Part shown: positions 31,221 to 45,975 of the stretch, piece by piece
Layout of the letters: the number at the start of each line of letters is the position of its first letter
Numbering within the stretch: the stretch's first letter is position 1
DNA from: Escherichia coli
GTDB lineage: Bacteria; Pseudomonadota; Gammaproteobacteria; Enterobacterales; Enterobacteriaceae
NCBI RefSeq assembly: GCF_030384885.1
Contig: NZ_CP128614.1
Reading direction: 5' to 3' (one strand)
DNA: 64,000 nt
Made by a program: the position numbers and the translations under genes
The notes under the pieces: model-generated
Databases searched by the model: none
What the model was told of the DNA's origin: nothing
What the model saw: the letters and a program-made list of their open reading frames with translations, nothing else

Positions 31221-33176
31221 TTATACGACCTGCCTGACCATCCTCATCAGAAGGCGGTTTAACAGTCCTTTCGCTGTCGGGCGATTGCTATCGACATAGT
31301 AAAAACCTGTTTTGGTCGTACCGTGAGCACTGCTCAGCACCCTCAGTTCCCAGATAACGTCACGGATAACGCCGCCATTTTCTGGCTTAAGGCATTCAGA
31401 TAAATGGCGCATGAAACGAGCTCTTACGGCACGGTAATAGCGGAACTCCTCTGGCTGGTTAGTATTTTCTTTCACCCGGAGTCGCTGGTTACACAGAGTT
31501 AGAACTGCATCCATCATTCCCGCCTTCAGCTTCGCCTGGATCGCACCTTGTTGCTGTTCCCTCTCACCTTCGAGTAACGTTAAGATTCTTTCTCCGAGTG
31601 CCGTCTTGTTGTGTACGTGCAACTGTACACAGGCAGCTACGCATGCCCAGAATCTGAACTTTTTTATCTGTCCACGCAATTTCCGGGCTACAACCTGACG
31701 GTATGCAGTATCGCTGAGTATTTTAAAACGCCGACTGGCAACCAGCTCTGGAAGCGACACTCTTTCGCCTATCCCCAGGCGGGAAAAGGTTTGTCCCCGT
31801 TGTGCGAGACGATGATAGACAGCGCCCTTCCCTTTTGAAATTCGGACCGCGCCATAACGAAGAAGATACTGAGCAGCAGTCGTTGGAGTAAACTCACCGT
31901 CAGCGATGCTCTGGCGTAACCCGTCGTATTCATGCCAGATAATCCAGGACGCCGTATCTTCTTCAACAGTCAGCTCATCCTCTTCCTCGAATGCCACGAC
32001 GACAGAACTGCTCTCTCCGGTCTTTAGGCTACGTGAAGCCCTGGGGTCAGCCTGCCCGTCAAAATAGGTCATCAGCGGCAACGTATCAGTCAGTCCATCA
32101 TAAGCTGTACCGAACCGGCCTCCGGGCAGTTTCATCCAGAGTGGAGCTGGCATTGGTGTACGGGCCACAGGCAGCATGTCAGGCTCATCCTCAAGAAGGT
32201 CCAGATCGGCCTCTTCCCAGACTCTGCGATAGATCTCAATTGCCCGAAACGGGCGAGGGTTGAAACAGTGCAACGACCAGAGGAAATCAACGTGGATCAC
32301 GTTTGCTTCATGTACAAGCCGAAATTGTGGCTCAGCCATACGACGGTTATAAGCCGTATCGTCCACCTCGCCGGAAAGTAGCTTTCTGCGATGCTTTGCC
32401 GCACGTCTGGCTTCAACATAATCAAGGCTGCAACAGACATGAAAAAGACGTTCAGTCAGGGACGAAGAAAAGATATTGGGTTGAAGACGCACATACCCGC
32501 CTTCGAACACTTTACGACCGATATAATCCCGCAGGCTCCAGTCGTACTGGATCTTAGAAAGAAATCGCTGAAGACGACTTAGGCCTGCCTGATAACCATA
32601 TTTCTCAGGGTCAGTGCGAAGGAGCGTTTCCATTGAATGGTCAACCCCTACGGCTGTGCAAAGCGAGCACCCATATCTAGCCCCACAAGCTGAGGTTCGC
32701 GTGGGTTTCTCCGGCGACCAGATACACTCTCCGGTGGCGTCTTTATAAAGCGTTGCCAGGCTGAAGTTATCCGGCATAAAGCTTGGTAAAGGGAAGCGGG
32801 ATTCGGAACCACAGGCCATTAGAAAAGACCAGATGTCCTGAGTGCGCCACTCCTTTACTGGATAGAGTTCACCACCGTGCTCAGTCAGGGTTACTTTCCT
32901 CGCCTGCCCTCCCATTTTGAGGATATTTCCGGCCCTTCGGGCACTTTCATCATCCCTGGAGCCCAGCATCAGGCATACCCTGCTTCGTACGGATGCCGGG
33001 GCGTTTTTTAGATAACGAGCTTTGGCCTTGCGCAGGGGGGCGATTTTGTAGTCACAAACTACTACCACACTGTTACAGTGTAGAAATTCTGGAAGGCGGT
33101 GCCAGTGTTGGTTTAGGATAATGTTAACAATTTTTCCAGAGTTTTCAGAGAAAAGAGATTTTGAGTGACAAACCAC
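31221..33176 (-). pseudogene. PAPS-reductase-family (DndC/IbrA-like) gene lacking its N-terminal P-loop region
   Basis: 651-aa ORF with GSRDDESARR, EWRTQDIW and CGARYGCSLC motifs of the PAPS-reductase fold but no SGGKDS P-loop; in-frame stop 6 codons upstream of the annotated GTG start (read directly), so the N-terminal part is not encoded here. Confidence 0.5.
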
Positions 33177-33418
33177 TGATGTTTTCCAGAATCACTTTCT
33201 CTTAGAAGATCGATAAAGTCTGTCTATGGGGAGGATCGTCTCCCAGGGTGAAGTCAGTCCACTTCACCGAGTTGCTTCCCCATCGGTGGGTTCTTCAAAA
33301 GGGCAACATGGCCGCCCTCCAGAGGTGAACGTACCTTATGCCTATGTACCAAGCCTTAGATTCCTGATAGTTCTAAGGGCGAGAAATAGCAAACTTACTT
33401 GAAAATTGACTCTGAAAT

Positions 33419-34525
33419 TCAAGCTTCAGCTAGAATAAACTTCCGTTGCTCATCTTCGCATTTATAACATGCGAAATATTTGATTGTTTCCATATCACCA
33501 GTCACATACTCATCACAATGTGGACAGTTAACTGCTGACCATCCTCTATCAAAGCATGAAACACAACTCCACTGACCTTCAATATAGAAAACTGAATTTG
33601 GAGCGTGCTGACATACGTGACAACCAGCGACACATTCGCCACCTTCCTCCCACCAATCATCACCCGTTACATATATGTCGCGACACAATTTTATTAAGAT
33701 ATTTGTGGTGATCTCATGAGCACATTGTGGACATTTATTGATGTCAGGACTGAAAAATTCGAATGGTACTTTACAGTTTGGGCAAGGCAAAGTATCAGTG
33801 ACTTGCTCTACCGCAACGCCCTGCGATTCGCAAACAAGACATTCATAATCATCTCCCCATTTATGAGTATCATTAACTTTACCGGCTTCAAGGCCACATT
33901 GACGGCACTTAACTATTTTAATTTTTTTTAATCTTAAGACGTCAATTTCCTTTGAAAGCTCATTGAATCGGGTGCTGAGGAACTCTTTTTGTTGCAGCAT
34001 TCTCTTATGCACACGCTCAAACTCTTCCTTAAATTTAATAAATTCATCTTTCCATTCAATAGTGAGTAAATTATATAAATGGTGCCATGAAGACCATTGT
34101 TGAGCTACAACCCCTGCTTTATTAGCTTGAGCGCTTGAATATCCAGTGTGTGCAAAGTGAACAATTTGGTTCCTATGCGCACCTAACGTTCTGAACTCAT
34201 CAAGGATACTGTCATCAAGTTTAATGCCAATAACAGTTTTAAGACGTTGAACAGCGTCACTAAAATACACAGAATTAAAGTCACCAACGCTAAATTTTTG
34301 TTTATTAGCTTTGCCAGGATCATCTAATATTAAAGTCCAATGTTCGAGCATTAACCTTGCTTTTAAGAAAAGTTCAATGGCTGTATAGAAATCAACAATC
34401 GAATTTTTGGGTCTTATATTTAAATCATCAATTGACGACTCAAGAAAATCTATAGCATTTATCACTAAAGAATCAAAAAGTTGTTCATTGCTCTGTACTG
34501 TTTGCTTAATGTATGTGCGTGCCAT
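33419..34525 (-). CDS. multi-Cys zinc-ribbon protein, unknown function
   Basis: 368-aa ORF; helical N-terminal half; C-terminal half has at least six CxxC pairs (CRQC, CLVC, CPNC, CPQC, CHVC, CVSC, CPHC, CYKC); very AT-rich coding sequence. Confidence 0.5.
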   Translation of the reverse strand: MARTYIKQTVQSNEQLFDSLVINAIDFLESSIDDLNIRPKNSIVDFYTAIELFLKARLMLEHWTLILDDPGKANKQKFSVGDFNSVYFSDAVQRLKTVIGIKLDDSILDEFRTLGAHRNQIVHFAHTGYSSAQANKAGVVAQQWSSWHHLYNLLTIEWKDEFIKFKEEFERVHKRMLQQKEFLSTRFNELSKEIDVLRLKKIKIVKCRQCGLEAGKVNDTHKWGDDYECLVCESQGVAVEQVTDTLPCPNCKVPFEFFSPDINKCPQCAHEITTNILIKLCRDIYVTGDDWWEEGGECVAGCHVCQHAPNSVFYIEGQWSCVSCFDRGWSAVNCPHCDEYVTGDMETIKYFACYKCEDEQRKFILAEA

Positions 34526-35023
34526 AATGCCTCTTGATTATATTGCCCTTCGAATGTTGAACATTATATCTTTAGAGGCAATATTTTGTCACATCCCACG
34601 ATATTTTGGAGCTGAATTATTTGATCAGGCTTACACAATCTTTCTTCTCTATCCCCATTTACCTTTTGCTCTGTTACCTGCGTTGAAATGGTTGATGACC
34701 CACTAATACTGTACTCTGCCTCTTGTATAAATACATTTCAACATAAGATTGGCAAAGTAATCCTCCATAGTAGCTGCTTGAGTGGTTGATTGTCGGAATA
34801 GTGCATAGCCATTTTGGTCAGCAGAAAGCGCTGTTACCGAATGACTTGATCGTAGTACGTGTCTACTCGCCTACCAGAACTGCTGTCCTCTCATCAACTA
34901 TCTGTATAGGACCATTTGAAACATCAGATATATTTTCAGAAATCTCCTGTTAGCGTGATGGTGACTATCTTAGCTGAGAAGGATTACGAATATATTCTTA
35001 CATCATATTCTTTGAGGTGAAAG

Positions 35024-36247
35024 CTATCTATAATTTTCCAGATAGCAAGTGTCTTTGAATGCATTATAATTGCCAATTTCTTGGTTTATTTCAATTTCAT
35101 AATCTAAGCTGACAATAGGTATTTCAACACCATTTAATAAAAGAGACTCTTGATTTTTCTTCCATTTTTTGTTTTCATTCCATGCTAATTCACTTTTGTT
35201 CTCGGGGTCTCCCATTACTTCAATTTTGATACCTTTTAAAGTAAATGTACAATAAAATGATTTGATGTTTTCTGATGTGGTTTTAAACAACTCCCCTTTG
35301 ATACCAGGGTTGATTAACTTGCATATTTCATTAGCCCCTTTCTCCGTTGTTATGATATCAATATCATTTGCATAAATTTGAACGCCTTGTAAGTACCTAT
35401 TAGCCCCACCAGTTATACTCCAATCCTCCTCAATCGGTTGGAGTAATAATGTTAATTCTGTAATTGCGTCGATCAATTGTTTGCTTTGAAAGTTATTTTT
35501 ATTATAAAGCCGTTGAGCCCAGGTTTGTTTTATTTGCATACTGTGTTTTAAATAAATTGCATTATTAATGCTTGGAGCTGTAAATATCTCATGTTCGTAT
35601 TTAGAATATATGTAAGATAGATATTCTGGTGCTTTGCGATTATTAATCTCTATGAATCCATCTATTTTTTTCATCTCATTGTGGGCGTTGAAAAAACCTG
35701 ACACTTCTGAGAATAAATTATAGAAATTATTTATGACTAGCATCCCAAATATGGCGCGGCTATACTGAAAATCTAAATTATCAGTCAGCGTGGTATACAT
35801 AATAATAATTATACTAACTAGTAGTAGTATTGTTAGTAATAAATAGAATAACTTCTGCTGGAAAGCTTTAATATATAAGATAGAGTTCCAGTATGCATTC
35901 TCTTGTATGAGTGTTATTAACCTCTCTGCACGAAAGCCATTTTTATTTTCCGCATTACCATCAATGTAGAGTCGCTCTCGGTAAAAATTTTCCTCGCCTA
36001 TAATACCTCTCAGCATTTCTAATCTTTTTGTTTCTATAGCCTTAGCTGCATACGAAGTTTTAAAATGCATTGCAAACCAAGTGAGGAGTTGTATTATAAA
36101 CGTGAGGGTTGCAATACCGTAGAGCCAATGAGAATTCAAAAAAATCCCGACGATCGATAAGCAGGAAATCATTAATGTTGAATAACTGATAGACTTAGAT
36201 AAAAAGTCAACTCTATCAAAATAAAAACTACTGTTTTTTGATTCCAT
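35024..36247 (-). CDS. membrane-anchored predicted nucleotidyltransferase (4TM N-terminal domain fused to a Pol-beta-like NTase)
   Basis: 407-aa ORF; about four TM helices in the N-terminal 180 aa; C-terminal ITGGANRYLQGVQIYANDIDI fits the minimal nucleotidyltransferase motif hG[GS]-x(9-13)-DhD; AT-rich. Confidence 0.5.
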   Translation of the reverse strand: MESKNSSFYFDRVDFLSKSISYSTLMISCLSIVGIFLNSHWLYGIATLTFIIQLLTWFAMHFKTSYAAKAIETKRLEMLRGIIGEENFYRERLYIDGNAENKNGFRAERLITLIQENAYWNSILYIKAFQQKLFYLLLTILLLVSIIIIMYTTLTDNLDFQYSRAIFGMLVINNFYNLFSEVSGFFNAHNEMKKIDGFIEINNRKAPEYLSYIYSKYEHEIFTAPSINNAIYLKHSMQIKQTWAQRLYNKNNFQSKQLIDAITELTLLLQPIEEDWSITGGANRYLQGVQIYANDIDIITTEKGANEICKLINPGIKGELFKTTSENIKSFYCTFTLKGIKIEVMGDPENKSELAWNENKKWKKNQESLLLNGVEIPIVSLDYEIEINQEIGNYNAFKDTCYLENYR

Positions 36248-36582
36248 TTCTCTATCTTGCTCACTTTTTTTTGTATTTTTACATACGAATTGACAATGTC
36301 AAGATGTAGGGGGAATAATTTGTTCATAACGCATGGGGAGTAAATAGTTCCTATGAACCAATCATGTCATGATTTTCCACATAACGTGGTGTCAACTACA
36401 AGGCATAATAATCTCAGACATTAGTTCGGATGCTTGTCTCGTAAACTCGAGCTTAAACTTTTAATACTTTAATTGTTATGGCTCAGTCGTTACTGAGAAA
36501 GCTAATTTTGTAAAATAACCACCTACCTTACAGGTGCTAACGGATGCGCAAGCCATTGAATTATCTGGAAAATTCAATGAGT

Positions 36583-37053
36583 TCAATGATTATTTTTTTC
36601 TTCTAATTTTTTTATGACATTCCCATGCTTTTTACCACACCATGCTTGTTTCCTACCCATAATAAGCAAAACCATTGGCTCGGTCGCTTTCAGTCCGGTT
36701 CGCCAAGACCTTAGATCAGTACTTGATGGCTGTGGGAAATCTTCGGGATGCGTATGCCATTCGCCCAAATAGACTAGAAAACCGTCTGATTGCTGAAATA
36801 AGTCATCCACTTTTTGCTGGTGATGTTTGCTTTTTCTTTCTATTCGTAATCGCGATCTTATATCACCTGCGCCTGGTTCTGATATGTGGGTGATGACAAT
36901 GTGTTTCCCACGACGTTCTCCAATAAGGATTCCTCCTGCCTCGGTACTGGCATGATGTAATTGACGATATAAATACAACCGCTGCACAACATCACTCATG
37001 ATGACGACATGATTGTAATCATCATCGATAAAAACTAACTCAGTTATGTTCAT
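36583..37053 (-). CDS. cap3: CBASS Cap3 (JAB/JAMM isopeptidase)
   Basis: 156-aa ORF with EWHTHPEDFPQPSSTD (HxHx7Sx2D JAMM motif); overlaps the cap2 stop by 14 bp. Confidence 0.75.
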   Translation of the reverse strand: MNITELVFIDDDYNHVVIMSDVVQRLYLYRQLHHASTEAGGILIGERRGKHIVITHISEPGAGDIRSRLRIERKSKHHQQKVDDLFQQSDGFLVYLGEWHTHPEDFPQPSSTDLRSWRTGLKATEPMVLLIMGRKQAWCGKKHGNVIKKLEEKNNH

Positions 37054-38809
37054 TGCAGATAGGACAGTTAGGCTGATGTGGCAAAAACTGAGGTTTCAGT
37101 GAACGTCCACCTTCTAACATATGCTCGTTGTAAGTCCATTTGAGGTCAGGCTCAAGAGTACTCAAGACTGCCTGTTGAGCCAAAGATGCCGTTATATTAC
37201 TCACCGCCGCATCATAAGATGTGTATGTGCTACCACAACTTTTATTTTTTTCACTTGAGATATCGAGGTTGTAAAATCGGGAATCGATACCATTATGGTA
37301 TTTTGCTGGATTAGTAACCATACATCCATAGCAGCTTCGGCCATCATCGATTAAAACTTTGGATGCTCGTCCATTACCATCATTGAAGGCGTGGATAATA
37401 ATAGGTCTTTGCTCACAGGGAATCTGTCTTACGATAGCCGCAATACGCTTGGAAACAGGAGGTCGACCTGTTGCATCGATAATAATGTCATATTTTTTCA
37501 TAACATCAATACTGATGGGGAATTGCTTATAAAATCCTTCTACTCTGGTCTGTAAATGCACAGAGTCTTGAAGTTTTGTTGCGAGTGAGAGCGCTTTGGA
37601 CCACCCAAAATCATGTGAAGGTAAAATGTGACGACCAAAATTACTAGGACGGTAGATATCATCATCAAATAAATGCAGTAAACCTTTCCCACAACCGGCA
37701 CCGTTTCGGAGTAACAATTCTGCAATATACCCACCAATGGTTCCGCAACCAACTAAAGCTATACGCTTATCGGATAAGCATTCTTTGCTTCTCCTTTGGG
37801 CATTTCGGCTAAGGAGGGTTGCCATATCAGCGCGAACCACACCCAATCGTTTATATGAGGCGCATACATTTTTACCAGCTAACAATGTGGCAAGTTTGGA
37901 CGTTGATTTTTTAGCTGATCTCTTGTGCCTTCTGAAATCAACAGCGTTAGTATTTAACTCAATATAGATGGCAAATATATCTTGATTGAAAATGTCGAAT
38001 AAAAAAATATATCTTTTCTTCCCCTCTGTTGTGATGTAGTGAACCACTCTGTCCCTGGCATTATGGTCCGCATTTTCTAGCCAGTCCAGTAATTCGCGGA
38101 ATGAAGTCGGTGGCCATTTCATCCCAGCAAGACGATTAGGGTTTACAGAAATATAATGAGTGTTGATAGAATAATTTTTCAAAGATTCTTGACGAAGGTA
38201 TCTTTGATTAAGCCATTTTTTTAAAATGGTTTCAGAGTCCTCGGGAGAGGATTCTTGGACAGTTATATATTCTAGCCTGGGAGAACCATCAGGAAATGTT
38301 GACTCTGAAAACAGTGTCTTAAGTCTGATCCCGCGGCTTGCTTTTGATAAAATATATAAACTATCACTAGGTCGCCAGTAAGTTGCAAATTCACCTTCGA
38401 GTTCTCTCTTATCATTCAGGCCATTAGTAGCGGCTAAAACTGAATTAATCAGTGTTCGGTGAATCTGGGCATCGACTTCTTTGTACGTACCCTCAAGGTT
38501 GTTTGGATCCCAATCAGCTTCCAACTGCTCTACATAACAGAGAATTCCTTCTTGGCTTATGTGAGGCATAAGGCGATCTCTGAACTTTTCAGGCAGATCA
38601 ACTATGCAAGCTAATGGCAGTTCCGTAAAAGGATCTGGCCGAATAACTAGTGCTACATTGAAATTTCCGGCTTCGGTTTCATATTCTTTCGTATAATAGC
38701 CTTTCAGGCGTTCCTGACTGTGTAGGAACGCCTTTTCAGGAAGTTTGCGGGCTAGCGTATAGCGATACCCGCACTCTATCATCATTTTATGGAGCCTTCC
38801 TTCCTCCAT
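37040..38809 (-). CDS. cap2: CBASS Cap2 (E1/E2 ubiquitin-like conjugation enzyme fusion)
   Basis: 589-aa ORF; Rossmann/ThiF-like ALVGCGTIGGYIAELLLRNGAG in the C-terminal half; start overlaps the CD-NTase stop. Confidence 0.75.
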   Translation of the reverse strand: MEEGRLHKMMIECGYRYTLARKLPEKAFLHSQERLKGYYTKEYETEAGNFNVALVIRPDPFTELPLACIVDLPEKFRDRLMPHISQEGILCYVEQLEADWDPNNLEGTYKEVDAQIHRTLINSVLAATNGLNDKRELEGEFATYWRPSDSLYILSKASRGIRLKTLFSESTFPDGSPRLEYITVQESSPEDSETILKKWLNQRYLRQESLKNYSINTHYISVNPNRLAGMKWPPTSFRELLDWLENADHNARDRVVHYITTEGKKRYIFLFDIFNQDIFAIYIELNTNAVDFRRHKRSAKKSTSKLATLLAGKNVCASYKRLGVVRADMATLLSRNAQRRSKECLSDKRIALVGCGTIGGYIAELLLRNGAGCGKGLLHLFDDDIYRPSNFGRHILPSHDFGWSKALSLATKLQDSVHLQTRVEGFYKQFPISIDVMKKYDIIIDATGRPPVSKRIAAIVRQIPCEQRPIIIHAFNDGNGRASKVLIDDGRSCYGCMVTNPAKYHNGIDSRFYNLDISSEKNKSCGSTYTSYDAAVSNITASLAQQAVLSTLEPDLKWTYNEHMLEGGRSLKPQFLPHQPNCPICNEHN

Positions 38810-40110
38810 CAGCCGCTTACCATCGTGGTGTTAATTTTTACAGGCGCCTGCTCCTTAGACGGGGAGATTTGAAATGCAGGAGCCGCAGCAATTGAAGTTA
38901 TTAACGAGGCATTAGTTACTCGTTTTCCAAACGCATTGTTTATCTTACGTAATGCTTCTTCCCTGCTACTTGAACTCTCTGCATCAAGCAAAATCCCCTC
39001 TAAATTTCTCATGGTTTCAACGATGGTTCTCTGATGTACGTTATGATCGCATTCGGCAGGGAAAAGTAACTTTTCATCAGTATCGTCGGGACTTTCCAGA
39101 CCGCGACAGAATTCATTAGGTAGTAATCTTGCAACTAGTTTCATCGTCCCTGTGAGGTCTGAACCATTATGTGCTTCTCTGTCGAGGATGTTTACAACTG
39201 CAGCCATCAGGCTAATAGATGAAGGACCTCCCACTTCCCATTGGGCATCTCTCCAGGCCTTCATAAAGCGGCAAATTGAACGGAGATGACCGCCAATACG
39301 CTTGCAACTATCATTAAACCAATCTTCAACAATTTTGGGGTCGCTGATCGACCACCTTCTTGCACCCTGACGCAGCGCTAAATTAACTTTGTCAGGTTCT
39401 ACTAGATATGCCTCGCGCATATCCATGTTTGCTGATAAAGACTCGAACATGGAGTCGGCACTTTTTATGATGTGTGCTGAATCGGCTGCAGTTTGTTTGG
39501 TCTGAAATTGCTCTTTGGGGATCGCATACATCGGTACGTCGATGTGTGTTTTCTCGTGAGGAATTTTGATGCGTCCGCAGGTGTTTTTTTCTTCATATAC
39601 CCATCCATCGTTTTCAGCCTCTAACGATTTCAGTGACGTATCAACGAGCAGAAGAAGTAAGGTGTGCCCAATACTGGGTTCGGATTCAAAGACCGTCATT
39701 GGCATGTAGGTGCCGTCATCGATATCCATTTCCTGACCCGGGTGAAAAGGTCTGTTTAACGTATCGTATTGAAAACTCCCTTGGGTCCAGAAGCGAGGTT
39801 GAAATTTGATGAAGTCATCACGAGCTACATCTTCCATTTCAAAAATGAGTCGAGCGAGAGTCTCACGGTCTGAGGGAGAGAGGTAGCGAACATTAGTTTG
39901 CTCCAGTTTAAATCTAACGCTTTCAAGCGTCAGAGTTTGCTTTCTGGCGTCTGTAGCAATTTGACGAGCTTCTTTAAACACATCCCTCGTTCTTTCACGG
40001 ACTTTCTGGCGAAGTGCTTTCAGTTTGTCGGATTCAGTCTTACCCAATTTTAGTTTACTGATTAAGCCATCCACACTATGGCTGTAGTAATTGTTAAAAT
40101 CCCAACGCAT
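38809..40110 (-). CDS. dncV: CD-NTase, DncV-like cyclic dinucleotide synthase
   Basis: 433-aa ORF; NTase motif QGSFQYDTLNRPFHPGQEMDIDDG; long stretches match Vibrio cholerae DncV as recalled (MRxxWNFxxYY N-terminus, RFWTQGSFQYDTLNRPF, C-terminal NxAFGxRVTN...STMVSG). Confidence 0.85.
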   Translation of the reverse strand: MRWDFNNYYSHSVDGLISKLKLGKTESDKLKALRQKVRERTRDVFKEARQIATDARKQTLTLESVRFKLEQTNVRYLSPSDRETLARLIFEMEDVARDDFIKFQPRFWTQGSFQYDTLNRPFHPGQEMDIDDGTYMPMTVFESEPSIGHTLLLLLVDTSLKSLEAENDGWVYEEKNTCGRIKIPHEKTHIDVPMYAIPKEQFQTKQTAADSAHIIKSADSMFESLSANMDMREAYLVEPDKVNLALRQGARRWSISDPKIVEDWFNDSCKRIGGHLRSICRFMKAWRDAQWEVGGPSSISLMAAVVNILDREAHNGSDLTGTMKLVARLLPNEFCRGLESPDDTDEKLLFPAECDHNVHQRTIVETMRNLEGILLDAESSSSREEALRKINNAFGKRVTNASLITSIAAAPAFQISPSKEQAPVKINTTMVSG

Positions 40111-41180
40111 CAGTGGATCTCCTGCGCATTCATGCGCTTAAAGGGTTTTGCGGGAGTAGTGAAAAAATTCTTAAGCTTCTGATCTTGAGCGAACTCAACA
40201 TTGGCGAGCTGCCTTCCCCTTGCGCTTAAATTTTCAAGGGAACTCTTCGTGGCATTATCCAGGGTGATATCACTGGCTGCTTCATTGGGGATAATTTCAT
40301 CCAGGTAGATGTAGTTATCCACCGCGTCATGGAGCATAAGCTCACGCTGTAGCATATTTTTATGAAGATGCTGGTTAGCTGTCATGGTTGTAAGCACCAG
40401 CCGTTTTCCCATACCCCAGAGACGACAGTAGCCATTCCACCATGTTTTGCTCAACAACTTTGGACTAAGTGAATACTCTTCACCAACAGTACCGATATTA
40501 AGTATATGTATGTCTTTATGGGTGACGCTGAAGTCAGAATTCATATCCCTGAAAACTTCCAGAAGTCCTATGTAGCTGGGGTTGTTTGCGACCAGACCAC
40601 CATCGGCAAAATATGCGCGGAGATCCTCACAATAGTGTGGGGAAAAATACGTTGGCGCGGCTGAGGTTGCCAGTGCGGCATCTATCAATTTAAGAGGCCC
40701 ATCACGAGTAAAATCTGGGTTGTGTGGTGTCTTGAAAAACTGCGGTTTTCCTGTTGAAAGGTTTACTGCCGGGATCATTACTCGCCGGGTTAGGTCATTG
40801 AATGTGGTTTCAGCCCCAATCATTTCTTGAATTGTTTCGCGAAGAGGATGGCTGCGGTAGATAGGAGCACAAAGTGATCTAAGCAAGTTGGTCAGGGACC
40901 ATCTTTTGGGAAAAATGTCATTCGCCCTATCGAAGAACACTCGTTCCAGCTCACGGGCACTTTTTCCTGTAGCAAGGCCGAGAGCTAATATGCCGCCTAT
41001 TGATGTCCCTGTAATGAGGTCAAAATAATCGCCAATTTTAATATCCTGATTAGGGTATTTGCTGGCAAGTATCCTCTCAATCTCAGAAAGGACACTGATC
41101 GTAAACATTCCCCTGGCCCCCCCGCCATTAAGACTTAGTATCCGCACGCCATAGTGATTTCCTGCACTTATGTCAGACAT
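40110..41180 (-). CDS. capV: CBASS effector CapV (patatin-like phospholipase)
   Basis: 356-aa ORF with patatin motifs GGGARG (oxyanion), GTSIGG (GxSxG nucleophile) and DGG; stop overlaps the dncV start. Confidence 0.85.
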   Translation of the reverse strand: MSDISAGNHYGVRILSLNGGGARGMFTISVLSEIERILASKYPNQDIKIGDYFDLITGTSIGGILALGLATGKSARELERVFFDRANDIFPKRWSLTNLLRSLCAPIYRSHPLRETIQEMIGAETTFNDLTRRVMIPAVNLSTGKPQFFKTPHNPDFTRDGPLKLIDAALATSAAPTYFSPHYCEDLRAYFADGGLVANNPSYIGLLEVFRDMNSDFSVTHKDIHILNIGTVGEEYSLSPKLLSKTWWNGYCRLWGMGKRLVLTTMTANQHLHKNMLQRELMLHDAVDNYIYLDEIIPNEAASDITLDNATKSSLENLSARGRQLANVEFAQDQKLKNFFTTPAKPFKRMNAQEIH

Positions 41181-41630
41181 AGCCAGCTCCCCTCGGAAAG
41201 ATAGCTATAAGATATGTCCGCTTTTGTAGTTTTCAATGTACAAATAACCAGCAAATTTGAAATATGGTTAAAATAACTGCGTTATGGAAATTAATTGAAT
41301 ATTAATTCTTATTTTTGTTTTCCTGATGGAATTAAAATCTAAGTATGTCATTTTCTGGCTAATTTTACGAAAGGAAAATCCATGGCACATGCAGCCATCA
41401 CCTCACTCAGTCTTGGCTACATGAAACAATCTTGGTGTTATCACCGGTGAGCAAGGAATTGAGAGCTAAGCCTTGAAACAGAGGCATATGTGGGAAAGTC
41501 AGTGGAAAAAATGATGGATCCTAATCTCCCTGTTCAATCGTAACGAATTATCGCCCTTTACTCTTTTCCAGATCCGACTTGGATGTTGTTCATCCAGGCC
41601 GCTAAACGTTGCTGTCGCCGGGCCATCTCG

Positions 41631-41927
41631 TCACCATTTCTCCTGTCTGGCGGGCAAATTTTCCAAAGATTTATTCTCTCCCGACGGCATCATTTCTGAT
41701 GAATTTGCCATCGATGAAAGGCTGATTTCTACTCCCAGCACGGTAAACACTTTGAACAGGCGTTCAATACTCGCACTGGCTGGATTGGCCTCCAGACGAG
41801 CATAGGTTTGCTGGGTCACACCTAACCTTTCAGAGACGTCTTTTTGCGTCAGCCCATTCGCTTTACGAAAGCCAAGCAGCATTGGACGCAATTGGGTAAG
41901 TATTTTTATCGGATAAACATTTTTCAT
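41631..41927 (-). CDS. HipB-like XRE-family HTH regulator
   Basis: 98-aa ORF; LGFRKANGLTQKDVSERLGVTQQTYARLEANPASASIERLFKVFTVLGVEISL aligns with E. coli HipB as recalled; no hipA-like gene follows; lies 450 bp upstream of capV on the same strand. Confidence 0.6.
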   Translation of the reverse strand: MKNVYPIKILTQLRPMLLGFRKANGLTQKDVSERLGVTQQTYARLEANPASASIERLFKVFTVLGVEISLSSMANSSEMMPSGENKSLENLPARQEKW

Positions 41928-42201
41928 CGTGGGTAGGCCTCTATATGGTTTGATACACCCTGTAAGCTGTGTTTACATAATTACACCTTAAAAGCTGTTA
42001 AATCAAGATTACAGCTTAAAAGCTGTTCAAAAGTCATAACAGCCTGTTGCTATTAATATGGACAGGAAGAATACGTAGCACTGGCAGACGCAAACCAGAC
42101 TTGGATTGATAACGGCCACTGCTGTTTATTGTTGAATCCGTCTAACCTAATTCCAGTTCAACTATTGAAATAGAACCGGCATAGCGGATACATTACGCAC
42201 G

Positions 42202-42600
42202 TTGTTACCTTGTATCATCAGGATGCCGTTGACTGTGTTTATCAGCCGTGAAGTCATTTCCAGAATCGTGCTTATCATCATGGCTGTTGCCGTGCTGAGC
42301 AGTTCGCTTATGGTAAAACCACAGGCTGTCTACAATCTCCAGGATACAACATCCATCAGTGACCATCAGCACGACAGCGATGAACCGCTGAATGAGCACG
42401 ATCCGTTACAGTTCCACTCGCACGGTAATGTGCATCACCTCAATGCCGATCATTCCCACGATCTGAACAAACTCTTCACGCTGACTGCTTTGCAGGCCTG
42501 GAACGCAGGCATGCGGGCGACGTTCGCGCTAAGTTCAGAACAAATCCTGCGGGTCCCCCAGGCGACCCCCGAACGCCCTCCGAGATCCCTGATTGCGTAA
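42202..42600 (+). CDS. His-rich secreted or membrane protein (possible metal binding)
   Basis: 132-aa ORF with a hydrophobic N-terminus and His/Asp-rich segment HQHDSDEPLNEHDPLQFHSHGNVHHLNADHSHD. Confidence 0.35.
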   Translation: MLPCIIRMPLTVFISREVISRIVLIIMAVAVLSSSLMVKPQAVYNLQDTTSISDHQHDSDEPLNEHDPLQFHSHGNVHHLNADHSHDLNKLFTLTALQAWNAGMRATFALSSEQILRVPQATPERPPRSLIA

Positions 42601-42643
42601 TAACTTCCGTTAATTCGTTATTATTCAATTTGTAAGGGTTTTT

Positions 42644-43043
42644 ATGAATACCAGCCTCGATATACAGGGCCGGTTGAACGGTGGCCTGCTTTCAGCTCAG
42701 GCGCGTTCGGCTTGTCTGTTTTTCCTGTTGTTACTGCTTTTCTACAGCCAGGGCGCGTATGCGCACGACGTGGCGGAGGGCGACAAAGGGTACATCCAGG
42801 AAATCACCGGGATTATCGTCAATGCACAAAGGAGCGTGGGTAACGCTGGAAGGTAATGTTATCAGCCAGCAGGATGAGTGGTACACCTTCCGTGATCCAA
42901 CCGGCACCATCAAAGTGCGCATTCCTCAGAAGGTCTGGAACGGGCAGCACTTCGATGCTCAGGATTTGGTGCGGGTGAGTGGGCAGGTAATTCATGAGAA
43001 TGGTGCTACGAGCCTTGATGTAGGTGTGATTAGCAAGCCCTGA
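42644..43043 (+). pseudogene. YgiW/YdeI (BOF, OB-fold) family periplasmic protein, frameshifted
   Basis: signal peptide in frame 1 (42644..42856) and the OB-fold body (AWVTLEGNVISQQDEWYTFRDPTGTIKVRIP...) in another frame (to 43043); frames switch near 42820-42850. Confidence 0.5.
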
Positions 43044-43235
43044 ATTCCATCAAAACAAGCGGTACTTATAATAACCTTCATCCCGAGCGTGATAGCGCAT
43101 CACAACTTCGAGACTTTCTTCAAGGAATATATACGTCTGGGCATAGGACTCTCCATTATGAGAGTCCAACTAATGAGGGCAATGTATCGATCTGAGTATG
43201 AGATTGCTTTGTGGACTAAGGCAGAAATGAGCCTT

Positions 43236-43547
43236 CTAAGGCTGATCCTTCTTCAAGATTTTGATGAGTTCGATTTGCTGTTGTTCAGACATGTTAGCGA
43301 TCAGGCGAGCTAACTCTGCAGTCGTTTCGTTCTCGCAAAAGAAGTAGTTGATCGGTACCCCAAGTTCATCAGCCATACGCTTAAGAGTATCAATGTCAGG
43401 AGTATGTCTCCCCTTCTCGTAGTGGTTCATGCGGCCACTCGCTGAACTTGGTTCCATGCCAATTCGGATACCCAATTCTTTCTGAGTGATCCCGGCATAC
43501 GTTCTGGCAGCCTTGAGCCTGTCAGGTATCGGATTTGGGTGAGCCAC
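43236..43547 (-). CDS. XRE-family HTH transcriptional regulator
   Basis: 103-aa ORF with HTH LKAARTYAGITQKELGIRIGMEPSSASGRMNHYEKG; divergent from the helicase operon. Confidence 0.6.
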   Translation of the reverse strand: MAHPNPIPDRLKAARTYAGITQKELGIRIGMEPSSASGRMNHYEKGRHTPDIDTLKRMADELGVPINYFFCENETTAELARLIANMSEQQQIELIKILKKDQP

Positions 43548-43572
43548 GAAGTCATCATCATTGCCTTAGAGT

Positions 43573-43623
43573 ACTTAGATTGTCTAAGTTTCGTTGGTTT
43601 CTGTATACTTAGCAATTCTAAGT
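43573..43623. promoter_or_regulatory. two 17-bp palindromic operators in the divergent promoter region
   Basis: ACTTAGAttgTCTAAGT (43573-43589) and ACTTAGcaattCTAAGT (43607-43623), same half-sites, 17 bp apart, between the XRE gene and the helicase-operon start. Confidence 0.6.
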
Positions 43624-43646
43624 TTACTGATTTGGAAGTTTTAACA

Positions 43647-44216
43647 ATGAAGTCTGCAGTGAAGTTGCACCCTTATATTTATAATTTGTTGATAGAAAGA
43701 GATTTTGATGAGTTCGGTGCTATCCATCTCAGGGACGCTTTGCTGAAGATTACAGATTCATATGCTGATGTAACTGAAGCCAGAAAATTCATCCGCCGAC
43801 AACTTATCCGGCTGGAGGCATTGGGCTTCATTTTTAAAATTGAAAATAGCAGTGGGCGTCCGAAGATCCTGTACAAGAAAACGGAAAGCTTCTATTCAAC
43901 GACTTTCATACCAAGAAAATTGCCAAGTAACTCGCGCCTGGCTGCTGTGCCCGAAAATGTGAAACTACACGTTTTGGATGTCGATCTGTTCTTAATGGAC
44001 CTGACAAAAGAAAAAACTGTCCATGAGGCCAAACTTGCCGTCATTCTGAGTGAAATTGAAGAGTACCAGTCTCTTATGGAGCGTTTTCCCAGTAGACGGA
44101 GCTGCTTTATTGAACTCCATCAGCACGCAAAAAATCAGTCCGCCGCTTTGCTTGGCAGGGTTACTGCTTTATCGAAAGTGCTAGGTCAGCTTAGCGATGG
44201 GGATTGCGCATGCTGA
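43647..44216 (+). CDS. hypothetical protein, first gene of the helicase operon
   Basis: listed ORF 43539..44216; likely start is ATG at 43647 (MKSAVKL..., RBS-like GGAAG upstream) since the upstream part overlaps the divergent XRE gene; no catalytic motif recognised; 13-bp overlap with the helicase gene. Confidence 0.5.
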   Translation: MKSAVKLHPYIYNLLIERDFDEFGAIHLRDALLKITDSYADVTEARKFIRRQLIRLEALGFIFKIENSSGRPKILYKKTESFYSTTFIPRKLPSNSRLAAVPENVKLHVLDVDLFLMDLTKEKTVHEAKLAVILSEIEEYQSLMERFPSRRSCFIELHQHAKNQSAALLGRVTALSKVLGQLSDGDCAC

Positions 44217-45598
44217 GGGAGTGGCAGAAAGAATGCTCTGAAGCAGCGCTAGAAAAATATCAATCTGGATCGCCGCACTTTCTATGTCTTGCCAGTCCTG
44301 GTGCAGGAAAAACCGTGATGGCTGCTGAAGTTGCCAGGAAAATGCTGGAGCTGAAACTAGTAGATCTCATCCTATGCTTTGCACCTTCATCTGTGGTGGT
44401 TGCATCCATTGAAAGTACTTTCTCCCATATTCTTCAAAGGAACTTTAATGGTGGTCTTGGTGCAGTAGGTGCTGCGTATACTTATCATAGCTTGATGTAT
44501 TTCGATAAAAGCTTCTGGAAGTCTTTGCAGATGCATCGGGTATTAGTTATTTTCGACGAAATCCATCATTGTTCTGGCGATTCGCTGGATAATGCTAATG
44601 TGTGGGGCGGGGAAATCCTTTCTCAAGTTCAGCAATGTGCCAGTTACTCTTTGGCACTAACAGGGACTCCATGGCGAACTGATAGTACTCCTATAGTGCT
44701 CTCAAATTACACTGATCCGGATGGGGAGATCTGTTGTGACTATGTATATGGACTACATGAGGCTATTGTCGATGGTGTTTGTCGTAAACCTAAAATCGCC
44801 TTGATAAACAGCAATAATTTAGTATATTCATCAAAGGATAATGTTCAGTTTTTTGGTTCCATCACAGATTTCCTGAGTGAAACCGTTGCTTCGTATCAAT
44901 CAATAATTTGGCATCCAGAAGCAATGAAGTATGTACTAGAAGCTGGATGTAAAAAACTTAACGAAATACGCAAAGTTAATTCTGATGCGGGTGGTTTAGT
45001 TGTTGCTTCTTCAGTCGAGCATGCATATAAGCTACTGAATATTTTGGAAAAAGAGTTTGACCAAACAGCGATAATTGTGACGTACCACGATCGAGATGCT
45101 TTGGCTAAGATTGGATATTATCGGCAATCAACTACAGAATGGATTGTTAGCGTTGGTATGATTAGTGAGGGCACAGATATCCCCAGGCTACAGGTCTGCT
45201 GCCATTTGAGTTCTGTCAAAACAGAACTTTACTTCAGACAAGTATTGGGCAGGATATTACGGGTGAATCAGAGTGAAAATCAGGAAGCCTGGTTATTTAC
45301 AATGGCTACAAATGAACTGACATTATTCTCAAACAGATTGGCCGAAGATTTACCTGAAGATTATAAAGTTATGCAACAACAATCTGATGATTGGTCATTC
45401 CCTACAATTGATTCTCAGTCTATGCCTCCAGAGTTTGTGCGGAAAAATGGTATATCTAAAATAAAAGAGATTGATTTAGAAATGGATATTGGTGAAATAA
45501 CTACATCGTCACCTACGATTTCAAGTCAAACAAAACAACTAAAAATGGGCTCAATGCATCAACAAGTGATAGATGCATTTTTATTTTCAATTATTTAA
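44204..45598 (+). CDS. SF2 DExH-box helicase
   Basis: 464-aa ORF with Walker A ASPGAGKT, motif II IFDEIHH, LTGTPWR, and motif VI FRQVLGRILR. Confidence 0.65.
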   Translation: MRMLREWQKECSEAALEKYQSGSPHFLCLASPGAGKTVMAAEVARKMLELKLVDLILCFAPSSVVVASIESTFSHILQRNFNGGLGAVGAAYTYHSLMYFDKSFWKSLQMHRVLVIFDEIHHCSGDSLDNANVWGGEILSQVQQCASYSLALTGTPWRTDSTPIVLSNYTDPDGEICCDYVYGLHEAIVDGVCRKPKIALINSNNLVYSSKDNVQFFGSITDFLSETVASYQSIIWHPEAMKYVLEAGCKKLNEIRKVNSDAGGLVVASSVEHAYKLLNILEKEFDQTAIIVTYHDRDALAKIGYYRQSTTEWIVSVGMISEGTDIPRLQVCCHLSSVKTELYFRQVLGRILRVNQSENQEAWLFTMATNELTLFSNRLAEDLPEDYKVMQQQSDDWSFPTIDSQSMPPEFVRKNGISKIKEIDLEMDIGEITTSSPTISSQTKQLKMGSMHQQVIDAFLFSII

Positions 45599-45654
45599 TT
45601 TTTTATCGTATGCCGTAAACGGTTTGAAGAGTGAATTAACGGCATTGATTCAAG

Positions 45655-45975
45655 TTAAAACTGGCTAGTTACGGCCAGTTTCCCTAGGGAACTATAGTTT
45701 TTATCTATACAACGTGAAGCTAAAGAAGAGTGAATGATTGCCTTTTTTGTAACTAATTTTATTTTTAACTCCTCAAGCTTGTCTTTTAATGATTTATTTT
45801 CCTCTTCAAGAAATGATATTTTTACTAGTGATGCCCTTAATAAGTCATTGAGCTGGTGATGTTCTGAAGCCATTTGACGGAGTCTTTTTCGAGGGGGCTG
45901 AAAGCGTTCTGCAGGCACTGTTAGTGGTATAAAATATGCCCACGACTGTATTCCTGTTGTGTGGTAATTCCTCAA
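45655..45975 (-). CDS. small coiled-coil protein (partial paralog of 45993..46433)
   Basis: 106-aa ORF; MASEHHQLNDLLRASL...EEENKSLKDKLEELK parallels MAAEHHQLSHALRVARSRIEALEQEIKALK in the neighbour. Confidence 0.4.
   Translation of the reverse strand: MRNYHTTGIQSWAYFIPLTVPAERFQPPRKRLRQMASEHHQLNDLLRASLVKISFLEEENKSLKDKLEELKIKLVTKKAIIHSSLASRCIDKNYSSLGKLAVTSQF

What the first reader, a model, noticed from the sequence alone, without database searches (positions are those of the whole stretch)
36583..41927. Complete type II CBASS operon (capV-dncV-cap2-cap3), apparently very close to the Vibrio cholerae system
Four translationally coupled genes encode a patatin phospholipase (GGGARG, GTSIGG, DGG), a CD-NTase with the GS...DID motif, an E1/E2-like Cap2 (GCGTIGG Rossmann) and a JAMM Cap3 (HTHPEDFPQPSSTD). 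By recall, the CD-NTase shares long identical stretches with V. cholerae DncV, which would imply horizontal acquisition of a cGAMP-signalling system. A HipB-like HTH gene lies 450 bp upstream on the same strand with no hipA, so it may regulate the operon.
Basis: partly seen in the sequence, partly recalled or inferred. Interest (0 to 1): 0.55.

Follow-up and report, generated by a model that had tools for sequence, protein, structure and literature searches.

The report
Known CBASS operon on mobile island
The four genes are an intact, already-annotated cGAMP-based anti-phage (type II CBASS) operon; it is cargo of a 20-kb mobile island related to Vibrio cholerae VSP-1 that has inserted into an IncHI2 plasmid, and the nearby HipB-like gene is a leftover of an unrelated toxin-antitoxin module.

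Summary
capV (41180-40110), dncV (40110-38809), cap2 (38809-37040) and cap3 (37053-36583) lie on the minus strand. They are intact, overlap by 1, 1 and 14 nt, and keep every catalytic residue tested.

"Very close to V. cholerae" is overstated. Amino-acid identity to the VSP-1 proteins is 65, 60, 53 and 55%. The closest solved relative is the E. coli DncV homologue 4XJ6 (86%). Identical proteins occur on 329-417 public contigs and NCBI already names them as CBASS components.

The HipB idea is not supported. hipB sits in a 1.7-kb fragment (41534-43229) absent from a 96%-identical Klebsiella copy of the operon. That fragment derives from a hipBA-nickel-resistance region, with hipA cut to about 30 codons. 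Its three palindromic repeats lie only upstream of hipB itself.

Horizontal acquisition is strongly supported. The operon is cargo of a 20,361-bp element (33054-53414, 42% GC) splitting a conserved IncHI2 backbone gene. The element carries an intA-tfp-intB-srap recombinase module ("strand-biased circularizing integrative element") and matches catalogued SE-EasCA1043 in length and G+C content. It also encodes homologues of VSP-1 VspR, the reported CBASS repressor, and of VC0176.

This is ordinary biology with a modestly interesting mobile context.

The parts
40110..41180 (-). capV: cGAMP-activated patatin-like phospholipase, the effector (356 aa)
   Evidence: NCBIfam CBASS_lipase scores 366 bits against a cut-off of 200. 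PADLOC phospholipase effector scores 356 bits. The match to A. baumannii CapV 8ZR9 is 409 bits. G19GGxRG, S60 and D193 are invariant in 9 species. Identity to V. cholerae CapV is 64.7%.
38809..40110 (-). dncV: CD-NTase, a cGAMP synthase of the DncV lineage (433 aa)
   Evidence: NCBIfam cGAS scores 332 bits against a cut-off of 150. PADLOC PDLC00821 scores 712 bits over the full length. Identity is 86% to E. coli 4XJ6 and 60% to V. cholerae DncV. G111-S112, D129, D131, D191 and the C-terminal G433 are invariant.
37040..38809 (-). cap2: E2-E1 fusion enzyme (589 aa)
   Evidence: PADLOC E1-E2 PDLC00841 scores 911 bits over the full length. Pfam finds Prok-E2_B at 13-148 and ThiF at 339-525. C91, the GCGTIG loop at 354, C493/C496, C525 and C582/C585 are invariant. 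Its length equals that of E. coli TW11681 Cap2 (PMC10097602).
36583..37053 (-). cap3: JAB/JAMM isopeptidase (156 aa)
   Evidence: NCBIfam Cap3 scores 260 bits against a cut-off of 200. The match to PDB 9ILD_A is 239 bits. E38, H100, H102, S110 and D113 are invariant.
36520..36536 (-). Terminator-like hairpin 47 nt downstream of the cap3 stop
   Evidence: Consensus scan only; sequence shown.
41181..41533 (-). capV upstream region shared with the K. oxytoca copy; contains a weak sigma-70-like site (41236-41209) and a GAGGGGA ribosome-binding site
   Evidence: blastn homology with L002 runs up to 41533. The sequence is shown.
41534..43229 (.). 1.7-kb inserted fragment of a hipBA-nickel-resistance region; not part of the CBASS operon
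   Evidence: It replaces 61 bp of L002. Positions 41537-42821 are 91% identical to K. pneumoniae pAP855 hipBA and its flank. Positions 42159-43005 match ncr clusters at 88%.
41631..41927 (-). Orphan hipB-like HTH antitoxin gene (98 aa)
   Evidence: It is 89% identical to the hipB next to an intact hipA in L003. NCBIfam HipB scores 41 bits, below the cut-off of 79.
41559..41627 (-). hipA remnant: a 22-codon ORF, with the frameshifted homology ending about 30 codons into hipA
   Evidence: The remnant reads MARRQQRLAAWMNNIQVGSGKE*. The 442-aa HipA of L003 begins MVRKQQRLAIWMNGIQVGFWEKSKGDDSLRYL.
41954..42026 (.). Three operator-like palindromes (ACAGCTTTTAAGCTGT) spaced 28 bp apart, upstream of hipB
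   Evidence: 7 matches against 0.81 expected. They are conserved in the hipBA locus L003. None lies in 41181-41630.
43236..43547 (-). HTH gene (103 aa), homologue of V. cholerae VC0176; resembles a controller (C) protein
   Evidence: It is 62% identical to the VSP-1 HTH gene, E = 2e-45. PADLOC Control_protein scores 86 bits.
43573..43623 (.). Two perfect palindromes ACTTAG-N5-CTAAGT in the intergenic region between the HTH gene and the vspR-like gene
   Evidence: They are conserved in L001 and L002. None lies upstream of capV.
43647..44216 (+). vspR-like gene (189 aa; the ORF can also be read from a GTG at 43539)
   Evidence: It is 37% identical over 184 aa to V. cholerae VspR, E = 4e-29. The V. 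cholerae gene carries Pfam VspR_N and VspR_C. UniRef names the 189-aa form 'Transcriptional regulator VspR'.
44204..45598 (+). Superfamily-2 helicase-like gene co-directional with the vspR-like gene
   Evidence: Weak matches to RadD and to restriction-enzyme helicase models. The gene is conserved in L002 at 84%.
45993..51679 (-). Recombination module of the island: intA (51679-50300), tfp (50334-48559), intB (48592-46430) and srap (46433-45993), all overlapping
   Evidence: The proteins are 31-41% identical to V. cholerae VC0184, VC0183 and VC0182 and to the V. aestuarianus module. The SE paper's supplement lists VC0182 and VC0184 as srap and tfp. IntA gives PHROG integrase hits. An R...HxxR...H...Y pattern is conserved in IntA and IntB; no conserved HxxR was found in Tfp.
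33054..53414 (.). The whole 20,361-bp mobile island (42.0% GC) that carries the operon
   Evidence: The flanks are 100% and 99.96% identical to contiguous DNA of IncHI2 plasmid pNDM33-1, with a junction ambiguity of 2-3 bp. The termini form an imperfect inverted repeat. Length and GC match SE-EasCA1043 (20,288 bp, 42.02%).
31221..33053 (-). 3' part of the IncHI2 PAPS-reductase-family gene split by the island; the 5' part is at 53415-53969
   Evidence: The gene is an intact 2,385 bp in pNDM33-1. Junctions are mapped.

Best explanation
The locus is an intact type II CBASS anti-phage operon of the DncV/CapV kind.

Inferred mechanism, taken from characterised homologues and not shown here. During phage infection the DncV-like cyclase makes 3'3'-cGAMP. 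Its output is boosted because Cap2 (E2-E1) activates the cyclase's C-terminal glycine (G433) and conjugates it to targets. Cap3 (JAMM) reverses that conjugation. cGAMP activates the patatin phospholipase CapV, which degrades the inner membrane and kills the infected cell before phage release.

Shown here by sequence. All four genes are intact and coupled, and all catalytic residues are present.

Genomic context. The operon is cargo of a 20.4-kb tyrosine-recombinase element of the SE type (intA-tfp-intB-srap) inserted in a backbone gene of an IncHI2 conjugative plasmid. The element is a relative of V. cholerae VSP-1: it shares the CBASS genes, homologues of VC0176 and VspR, and the recombinase module.

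The HipB-like gene belongs to a later, unrelated 1.7-kb insertion and is an orphan antitoxin. If any island-encoded protein regulates the operon, the VspR homologue is the best candidate. This last point is an inference at roughly 40% confidence.
For: Family assignment rests. Catalytic residues are invariant across nine species, and the four-gene synteny is conserved in nine loci, with cyclase-cap2-cap3 also on a contig-truncated tenth. Coupled junctions are shown.

Identical proteins occur on 329-417 public contigs and carry NCBI CBASS names.

The mechanism of homologues is taken from papers. Cap2 forms a thioester with the cGAS C-terminal glycine, and Cap3 E38 is required (PMC10097602). E. 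cloacae Cap2 uses an E2 cysteine and an E1 cysteine (bioRxiv 10.1101/2022.03.31.486616). CapV uses a Ser-Asp dyad and is activated by cGAMP (PMC12480259).

VspR as a negative regulator of the VSP-1 CBASS is reported in bioRxiv 10.1101/2023.04.04.535582. hipB as part of an insertion is supported.
Against: Nothing was tested functionally: the nucleotide product, phage defence, conjugation and regulation are all inferred from 53-86% identical homologues. E. coli TW11681 Cap2 is reported to have a predicted E1 catalytic cysteine at position 513. This protein has no Cys513; the invariant cysteine in the equivalent region is C525. I could not align the TW11681 sequence to settle the correspondence. 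In V. cholerae, vspR loss did not alter the CBASS-dependent phenotype tested in one study, so VspR control may be weak or conditional. No operator shared between the regulator genes and the capV upstream region was found. Read-through from the hipB promoter into capV is not excluded, because only a weak hairpin (41398-41382) lies between them.
Confidence: 0.88

Rival explanations
1. The HipB-like HTH protein is the dedicated transcriptional regulator of the CBASS operon.
For: It lies on the same strand 450 bp upstream with no strong terminator in between. It gives a weak PADLOC hit to CapH, E = 2.5e-4. Incidental read-through from an autoregulated hipB promoter remains possible.
Against: hipB is absent from the 96%-identical K. 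oxytoca and K. michiganensis copies, where another HTH gene occupies that position. It sits in a fragment 91% identical to a hipBA-ncr region, with hipA truncated. Its palindromic operators occur only upstream of hipB. No CapP partner gene is present. No homologue of this gene was detected near capV in the ten related loci.
Confidence: 0.06
2. The operon works mainly as a cGAMP second-messenger module that tunes host physiology (biofilm, motility) rather than as a phage defence.
For: In E. coli ECOR31 the homologous DncV and its co-transferred genes down-regulate rdar biofilm formation and motility (PMC6401482). The V. cholerae operon has not been seen to protect against its native phages ICP1-3.
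Against: The homologous E. coli TW11681 and V. cholerae operons protect E. coli against several phages (PMC10097602). The neighbours here include a candidate defence gene, HEC-08. Carriage on a mobile island is typical of defence cargo. The two roles are not mutually exclusive.
Confidence: 0.1
3. The operon is a decaying, non-functional passenger.
For: The only near-identical plasmid copy in PLSDB (pMY490-mcr-9) has frameshifts in all four genes, and none of the four genes appears in PLSDB's gene table for it.
Against: In the window all four ORFs are full length with every catalytic residue. The identical protein sequences occur on hundreds of contigs. That plasmid differs from the window by scattered small indels across the whole region (99.4-99.5% identity), which looks like assembly error rather than decay.
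Confidence: 0.03

Closest known systems
E. coli type II CBASS (TW11681 and ECOR31 operons; DncV homologue structure PDB 4XJ6)
   Same: The gene order is the same: capV-dncV-cap2-cap3. Cap2 (589 aa) and Cap3 (156 aa) have the same lengths. DncV is 86% identical to 4XJ6. The C-terminal glycine, the Cap2 C493/C496 pair and Cap3 E38 are all present.
   Different: The host replicon and island differ: RB-HPI on the E. coli chromosome against an SE element on an IncHI2 plasmid. No megablast match was found in 5,426 complete E. coli genomes. Cys513 reported for TW11681 Cap2 is not at that position here.
V. cholerae VSP-1 (VC0175-VC0185), including its CBASS operon VC0178-VC0181
   Same: The four CBASS genes are in the same order. 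Homologues of VC0176 (62%), VspR (37%), VC0182 (41%), VC0183 (31%) and VC0184 (34%) are present. A homologue of the intA gene that completes this module in V. aestuarianus is also present. All lie within one mobile island.
   Different: Protein identity is only 53-65% for the CBASS genes. The VC0176/vspR pair is inverted relative to capV. The recombinase module lies on the other side of the operon. There is no AvcD/AvcI (VC0175). Extra cargo is present: the helicase, HEC-08, the TM-NTase gene and the hipB-ncr fragment. The element is plasmid-borne in Enterobacteriaceae.
Strand-biased circularizing integrative elements (SE; Idola et al. 2023, PMC10214605), specifically SE-EasCA1043
   Same: The core order is intA-tfp-intB-srap with overlapping genes, and the ends form imperfect terminal inverted repeats. 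The size and GC (20,361 bp, 42.02%) compare with 20,288 bp and 42.02% for SE-EasCA1043. The accession numbering in the GenBank AZL64172-64184 series (CDS order) and in RefSeq WP_0233095xx fits the same gene order.
   Different: The catalogued copy is chromosomal in E. asburiae, whereas this one interrupts an IncHI2 plasmid gene. The paper's main text does not mention 'defense' or CBASS, and the cargo column for SE-EasCA1043 is empty. Sequence identity with that record could not be checked directly.
hipBA type II toxin-antitoxin module
   Same: The hipB-like gene, its operator palindromes and the first ~30 codons of hipA are 88-91% identical to a bona fide hipBA locus.
   Different: The HipA toxin is missing, so this is not a functional toxin-antitoxin pair.

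Membership tests
Type II CBASS (CD-NTase + effector + Cap2 + Cap3) | A CD-NTase with the GS...[DE]x[DE]...D catalytic core | tested here: met
   G111-S112, D129, D131 and D191 align with V. cholerae D131, D133 and D193. NCBIfam cGAS scores 332 bits against a cut-off of 150.
Type II CBASS (CD-NTase + effector + Cap2 + Cap3) | A nucleotide-activated effector gene in the same operon | tested here: met
   CapV patatin phospholipase; NCBIfam CBASS_lipase scores 366 bits against a cut-off of 200; the S60/D193 dyad is present.
Type II CBASS (CD-NTase + effector + Cap2 + Cap3) | Cap2 with both an E2 and an E1 (ThiF-like) domain and conserved cysteines | tested here: met
   Pfam Prok-E2_B at 13-148 and ThiF at 339-525. 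PADLOC E1-E2 scores 911 bits. C91 and C525 are invariant.
Type II CBASS (CD-NTase + effector + Cap2 + Cap3) | Cap3 JAB/JAMM isopeptidase with E...HxH...S..D | tested here: met
   E38, H100, H102, S110 and D113 are present. NCBIfam Cap3 scores 260 bits against a cut-off of 200.
Type II CBASS (CD-NTase + effector + Cap2 + Cap3) | CD-NTase ends in Gly or Ala for Cap2 conjugation | tested here: met
   The C-terminus is ...TTMVSG, and G433 is invariant in 9 species. The requirement is described in PMC10097602.
Type II CBASS (CD-NTase + effector + Cap2 + Cap3) | Protection against phage, and synthesis of 3'3'-cGAMP | not testable with these tools
   This needs plaque assays and LC-MS.
DncV lineage of CD-NTases | Full-length similarity to V. 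cholerae or E. coli DncV rather than to other CD-NTase clades | tested here: met
   Scores are 787 bits to E. coli 4XJ6 and 562 bits to V. cholerae 5GO3. The next CD-NTase structure (7LJO) scores only 23 bits. The best PADLOC cyclase model scores 712 bits against 284 for the runner-up.
hipBA toxin-antitoxin module | A HipA kinase toxin gene immediately downstream of hipB | tested here: not met
   Only a frameshifted remnant of about 30 codons remains, against 442 aa in L003.
CapH/CapP CBASS regulators | An HTH repressor paired with a CapP metallopeptidase next to the operon | tested here: not met
   CapH-model hits are weak (E = 2.5e-4 for the 98-aa HTH, 4.3e-9 for the 103-aa HTH). The island ORFs screened against PADLOC gave no CapP match, and none lies next to either HTH gene.
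Strand-biased circularizing integrative elements (SE) | Four core genes in the order intA-tfp-intB-srap, with tfp lacking the RHRY motif | tested here: met
   The order and the overlaps are seen. The proteins are homologous to V. cholerae VC0182 and VC0184, which the SE paper lists as srap and tfp. An R/HxxR/Y pattern is conserved in IntA and IntB, and none was found in Tfp; that last point rests on only two sequences. Pfam itself gave no significant hit.
Strand-biased circularizing integrative elements (SE) | 13-19-bp imperfect terminal inverted repeats and precise insertion | tested here: met
   The terminal repeat is ACAC(T)GTT..AGTGTAGAAA. The insertion is exact relative to pNDM33-1. The same left end is found in L002.
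Strand-biased circularizing integrative elements (SE) | Strand-biased circular intermediate without an empty donor site | not testable with these tools
   This needs PCR and deep sequencing of attS junctions.

The most novel reading that the evidence does not exclude
The island is an enterobacterial, plasmid-borne counterpart of the V. cholerae seventh-pandemic island VSP-1. It would be an SE-type element whose cargo (CBASS plus VspR and VC0176 homologues) has stayed together across very divergent recombinase cores: 31-45% amino-acid identity for the core proteins, against 53-98% for the CBASS proteins. It has now landed on a conjugative IncHI2 plasmid. This reading would mean that VSP-1 itself is an SE. 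It would also mean that SE elements shuttle defence cargo between marine Vibrio chromosomes and multidrug-resistance plasmids, with VspR-like repressors travelling with the CBASS they control. The homologies are solid. What is uncertain is whether this link is undescribed, and whether VspR really controls this operon.
Probability: 0.6. Interest if true: 0.45.

Novelty: already known. Interest (0 to 1): 0.28.

Why it matters
The operon itself adds nothing new. It is a textbook type II CBASS whose identical proteins are already named as such in public databases, and close homologues have been dissected biochemically.

The context is more useful. A complete abortive-infection system rides on a small tyrosine-recombinase element that can sit either in Enterobacter chromosomes or in a conjugative IncHI2 plasmid. 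The nearest relative of that plasmid carries mcr-9. The island also shares most of its gene set with V. cholerae VSP-1. That offers a tractable case for asking two questions: how defence cargo and its repressor move together between element backbones, and whether plasmid-borne CBASS affects phage susceptibility of resistance-plasmid hosts.

Tried and rejected
- Megablast of the operon against 5,426 complete E. coli genomes found no match. The E. coli relatives are therefore too divergent at the DNA level.
- The single genome-contig scan used query-specific peptide patterns and missed V. cholerae. I recovered the VSP-1 locus instead by exact look-up of the DncV sequence rebuilt from the PDB alignment.
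- Pfam found nothing in the VspR-like protein, in Tfp or in IntB beyond E = 0.97. Those assignments therefore rest on pairwise homology, PHROGs and conserved residues.
- PADLOC and NCBIfam gave nothing for the four recombinase-module proteins apart from weak Xer-like hits for IntA.
- Rfam found no RNA family anywhere in the island at E <= 0.1, so no AvcI-like or other known RNA was detected.
- I searched for the hipB palindrome and the ACTTAG-N5-CTAAGT palindrome upstream of capV and found none. My first attempt used the wrong spacer, N6, and missed even the real sites.
- A GInt (ginABCD) assignment was considered. I rejected it in favour of SE because the integrase-signal-free protein is second in the module, not third, and because the V. 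cholerae homologues are listed in the SE data set.
- A text search for PDB codes 9ILD and 4XJ6 found no source paper, so the organism of 9ILD is not asserted.

Full report
**1. Observation**

The region holds four co-directional minus-strand ORFs:
- capV, 41180..40110, 356 aa
- dncV, 40110..38809, 433 aa
- cap2, 38809..37040, 589 aa
- cap3, 37053..36583, 156 aa

A 98-aa helix-turn-helix (HTH) ORF lies at 41927..41631. The first two gene junctions are TGATG, a 1-nt overlap of stop and start codons. The cap3 ATG lies 14 nt inside cap2. A GAGGGGA ribosome-binding site precedes capV, and a terminator-like hairpin follows cap3 at 36536-36520.

**2. What the four genes are**

Three independent profile libraries agree on the assignments.

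| Protein | PADLOC | NCBIfam score / curated cut-off |
|---|---|---|
| CapV | phospholipase effector, 356 bits | CBASS_lipase, 366 / 200 |
| DncV | oligonucleotide cyclase PDLC00821, 712 bits, residues 1-433 of 434 model positions | cGAS, 332 / 150 |
| Cap2 | E1-E2 PDLC00841, 911 bits, full length | no equivalog model |
| Cap3 | JAB, 190 bits | Cap3 isopeptidase, 260 / 200 |

Pfam finds Prok-E2_B (13-148) and ThiF (339-525) in Cap2.

Comparison with solved structures gives these results:
- The cyclase matches the E. coli "VC0179-like protein" 4XJ6 at 787 bits (86% identity).
- It matches V. cholerae DncV entries at about 545-560 bits.
- The next CD-NTase structure scores only 23 bits.
- CapV matches A. 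baumannii CapV (8ZR9) at 409 bits.
- Cap3 matches 9ILD_A at 239 bits.
- The Cap2 E1 domain matches E. cloacae Cap2 weakly.

**3. Integrity**

I fetched ten related loci from other Gammaproteobacteria and the V. cholerae VSP-1 locus. Each of the four proteins was then aligned across nine species. The following residues are invariant:
- CapV: G19-G-G-x-R23-G, S60, D193. These correspond to S58, D192 and R21 of A. baumannii CapV.
- DncV: G111-S112, D129, D131, D191 and the C-terminal G433. Numbering is V. cholerae minus 2.
- Cap2: C91 in the E2 domain, the GCGTIG nucleotide loop, the C493/C496 and C582/C585 pairs, and C525.
- Cap3: E38, H100, H102, S110, D113.

No gene carries an inactivating change.

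One point remains unresolved. PMC10097602 predicts C513 as the E1 catalytic cysteine of the 589-aa E. coli TW11681 Cap2. This protein has no Cys at 513, and C525 is the invariant cysteine in that stretch. I could not obtain the TW11681 sequence to align it.

**4. How close it is to V. cholerae**

Against the VSP-1 genes (L014), identities are as follows:

| Protein | Identity to V. cholerae |
|---|---|
| CapV | 64.7% |
| DncV | 60.4% |
| Cap2 | 53.1% |
| Cap3 | 52.9-55.2% |

Long identical runs do exist, for example PRFWTQGSFQYDTLNRPF and EKTHIDVPMYAIPK. "Very close" is still an overstatement.

The operon belongs to an enterobacterial branch. For the cyclase, identity is 86% to E. coli 4XJ6, 90% to Brenneria and Affinibrenneria, and 83% to Rahnella. 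E. coli ECOR31 DncV is reported as 61% identical to the V. cholerae enzyme, the same distance (PMC6401482).

The four-gene order is conserved in nine of the fetched loci (eight genome-scan loci plus VSP-1). A further contig-truncated locus keeps the cyclase-cap2-cap3 order.

**5. Already annotated**

The exact CapV, DncV, Cap2 and Cap3 sequences are in the public protein collection on 329, 349, 406 and 417 contigs, mostly from the Enterobacter cloacae complex. They are named "CBASS cGAMP-activated phospholipase", "CBASS cGAMP synthase", "E2/UBC family protein" and "CBASS system CD-NTase/cGAS isopeptidase Cap3".

**6. The HipB-like gene**

The operon also occurs at 96% DNA identity on K. oxytoca and K. 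michiganensis IncHI1B plasmids. blastn shows the following correspondences:
- Window 33053-41533 aligns with that plasmid (L002 4593-13146).
- Window 43230-45810 aligns with L002 13208-15803.
- Window 41534-43229 (1.7 kb) therefore replaces 61 bp of L002.

The inserted fragment has a clear source:
- It is 91% identical over 41537-42821 to a K. pneumoniae plasmid region in which hipB is followed 4 bp later by a 442-aa hipA.
- Its right part matches nickel-resistance (ncr) clusters.

In the window, hipA is reduced to MARRQQRLAAWMNNIQVGSGKE*. The frameshifted homology stops about 30 codons in.

Three 16-bp palindromes (ACAGCTTTTAAGCTGT), spaced 28 bp apart, lie directly upstream of hipB. They are conserved in the intact hipBA locus. 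None lies between hipB and capV.

The gene is therefore an orphan antitoxin from an unrelated fragment, probably still autoregulated. It is not a dedicated CBASS regulator. Incidental read-through into capV cannot be excluded.

**7. The wider island**

The window flanks are IncHI2 backbone, more than 99% identical to hundreds of plasmids. The backbone includes a MobH relaxase and a TraD coupling protein.

Compared with pNDM33-1, window 28478-33053 and 53415-61842 are contiguous. The join falls inside a 2,385-bp PAPS-reductase-family gene. The intervening 20,361 bp (33054-53414) have 42.0% GC against 45.9% for the flanks, and they end in imperfect inverted repeats. The K. oxytoca copy shares exactly the same left end.

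At the right side lie four overlapping minus-strand genes of 459, 591, 720 and 146 aa:
- The first gives PHROG integrase hits.
- The first and third keep an R...HxxR...H...Y pattern.
- The second gives no integrase signal.

They are 31-41% identical to V. cholerae VC0184, VC0183 and VC0182 and to the V. aestuarianus homologues.

The supplement of Idola et al. [quoted passage not shown] It also lists SE-EasCA1043 from E. asburiae CAV1043 at 20,288 bp and 42.02% GC. The following accession series match the gene order seen here:
- RefSeq WP_0233095xx
- GenBank AZL64172-64184

I conclude the island is that element or a near-identical copy. Direct sequence comparison was not possible.

**8. Relationship to VSP-1**

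Beyond the four CBASS genes and the recombinase module, two more island genes have VSP-1 homologues:
- The 103-aa HTH gene (43547-43236) is 62% identical to VC0176.
- The divergent ORF (189 aa from 43647) is 37% identical over 184 aa to VspR, E = 4e-29. UniRef names it VspR.

VspR is reported as the negative transcriptional regulator of the VSP-1 CBASS. In the K. oxytoca copy this regulator pair lies directly upstream of capV. Here the hipB fragment separates them from it.

Two perfect ACTTAG-N5-CTAAGT palindromes sit between the two regulator genes but not upstream of capV. The 103-aa protein, which resembles a restriction-modification controller protein (86 bits), therefore probably controls its own divergent unit. 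VspR-like control of capV is an inference from homology only.

**9. Mechanism**

This is inferred from characterised homologues:
- The cyclase makes 3'3'-cGAMP on infection.
- Cap2 activates and conjugates the cyclase through G433, which raises cGAMP output.
- Cap3 removes the conjugates.
- cGAMP activates CapV, which destroys the membrane.

Sequence evidence shows that every component needed is present and intact. Activity, product and regulation are not shown.

**10. Verdict**

This is a correct call of a known system and an ordinary finding. Two corrections apply: it is not particularly close to V. cholerae, and HipB is irrelevant. One addition is worth recording: the operon is cargo of an SE-type, VSP-1-like island inserted in an IncHI2 plasmid.

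Noticed in passing
L001 12187-16769 (pMY490-mcr-9, NZ_CP053569.1): The only near-identical plasmid copy in PLSDB has all four CBASS genes broken into several frames. None of the four genes appears in the gene table. Scattered small indels run across the whole region, which suggests assembly errors rather than real decay.
   Followed up: partly
window 33419-34525 (-): A 368-aa protein with several CxxC pairs matches PADLOC candidate defence family HEC-08 (234 bits, full length) and DUF3644. It travels with the CBASS operon in the K. oxytoca plasmid as well (96% aa identity).
   Followed up: partly
window 35024-36247 (-): A 407-aa protein directly downstream of cap3 has an N-terminal multi-pass membrane region and a C-terminal nucleotidyltransferase domain (Pfam PF10706, E = 4e-7). 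It gives a marginal PADLOC '4TM effector' hit. It is conserved next to the operon in L002 but absent from the Vibrio, Brenneria and Rahnella loci. Its function is unknown.
   Followed up: partly
L002 17699-20853 compared with window 45993-50334: The K. oxytoca plasmid carries the same cargo block (HEC-08 through the helicase) at 84-98% aa identity and the same left terminus. Its srap, intB and tfp proteins are only 42-45% identical. This points to exchange of cargo between different SE cores, or replacement of the core.
   Followed up: no
window 31221-33053 and 53415-53969: The island splits a conserved IncHI2 backbone gene (PAPS-reductase/DndC-like family, 794 aa when intact). It creates a 651-aa fusion ORF whose first 41 codons are island DNA.
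   Followed up: yes
window 43573-43589 and 43607-43623: Two perfect 17-bp palindromes ACTTAG-N5-CTAAGT, 34 bp apart, lie between the VC0176-like and vspR-like genes. They are conserved in L001 and L002 and resemble controller-protein operator boxes.
   Followed up: partly
window 52784-53377: Between intA and the island end lie an 82-aa Xre/MbcA/ParS-type antitoxin fragment without a RES toxin and a 49-aa ORF that looks by eye like an IS3-family transposase C-terminus. This is debris inside the element.
   Followed up: no
window 44204-45598 (+): The SF2 helicase-like gene co-transcribed with the vspR-like gene is annotated 'diguanylate cyclase' in pMY490-mcr-9 but 'DEAD/DEAH box helicase' in the K. 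oxytoca plasmid. The former name looks like an annotation error.
   Followed up: no
window 1129-6365 and 20142-22441: The backbone features are a MobH relaxase (256 bits) and an SXT-type TraD coupling protein (677 bits). IS4-family and IS3-family transposase genes lie further in.
   Followed up: no
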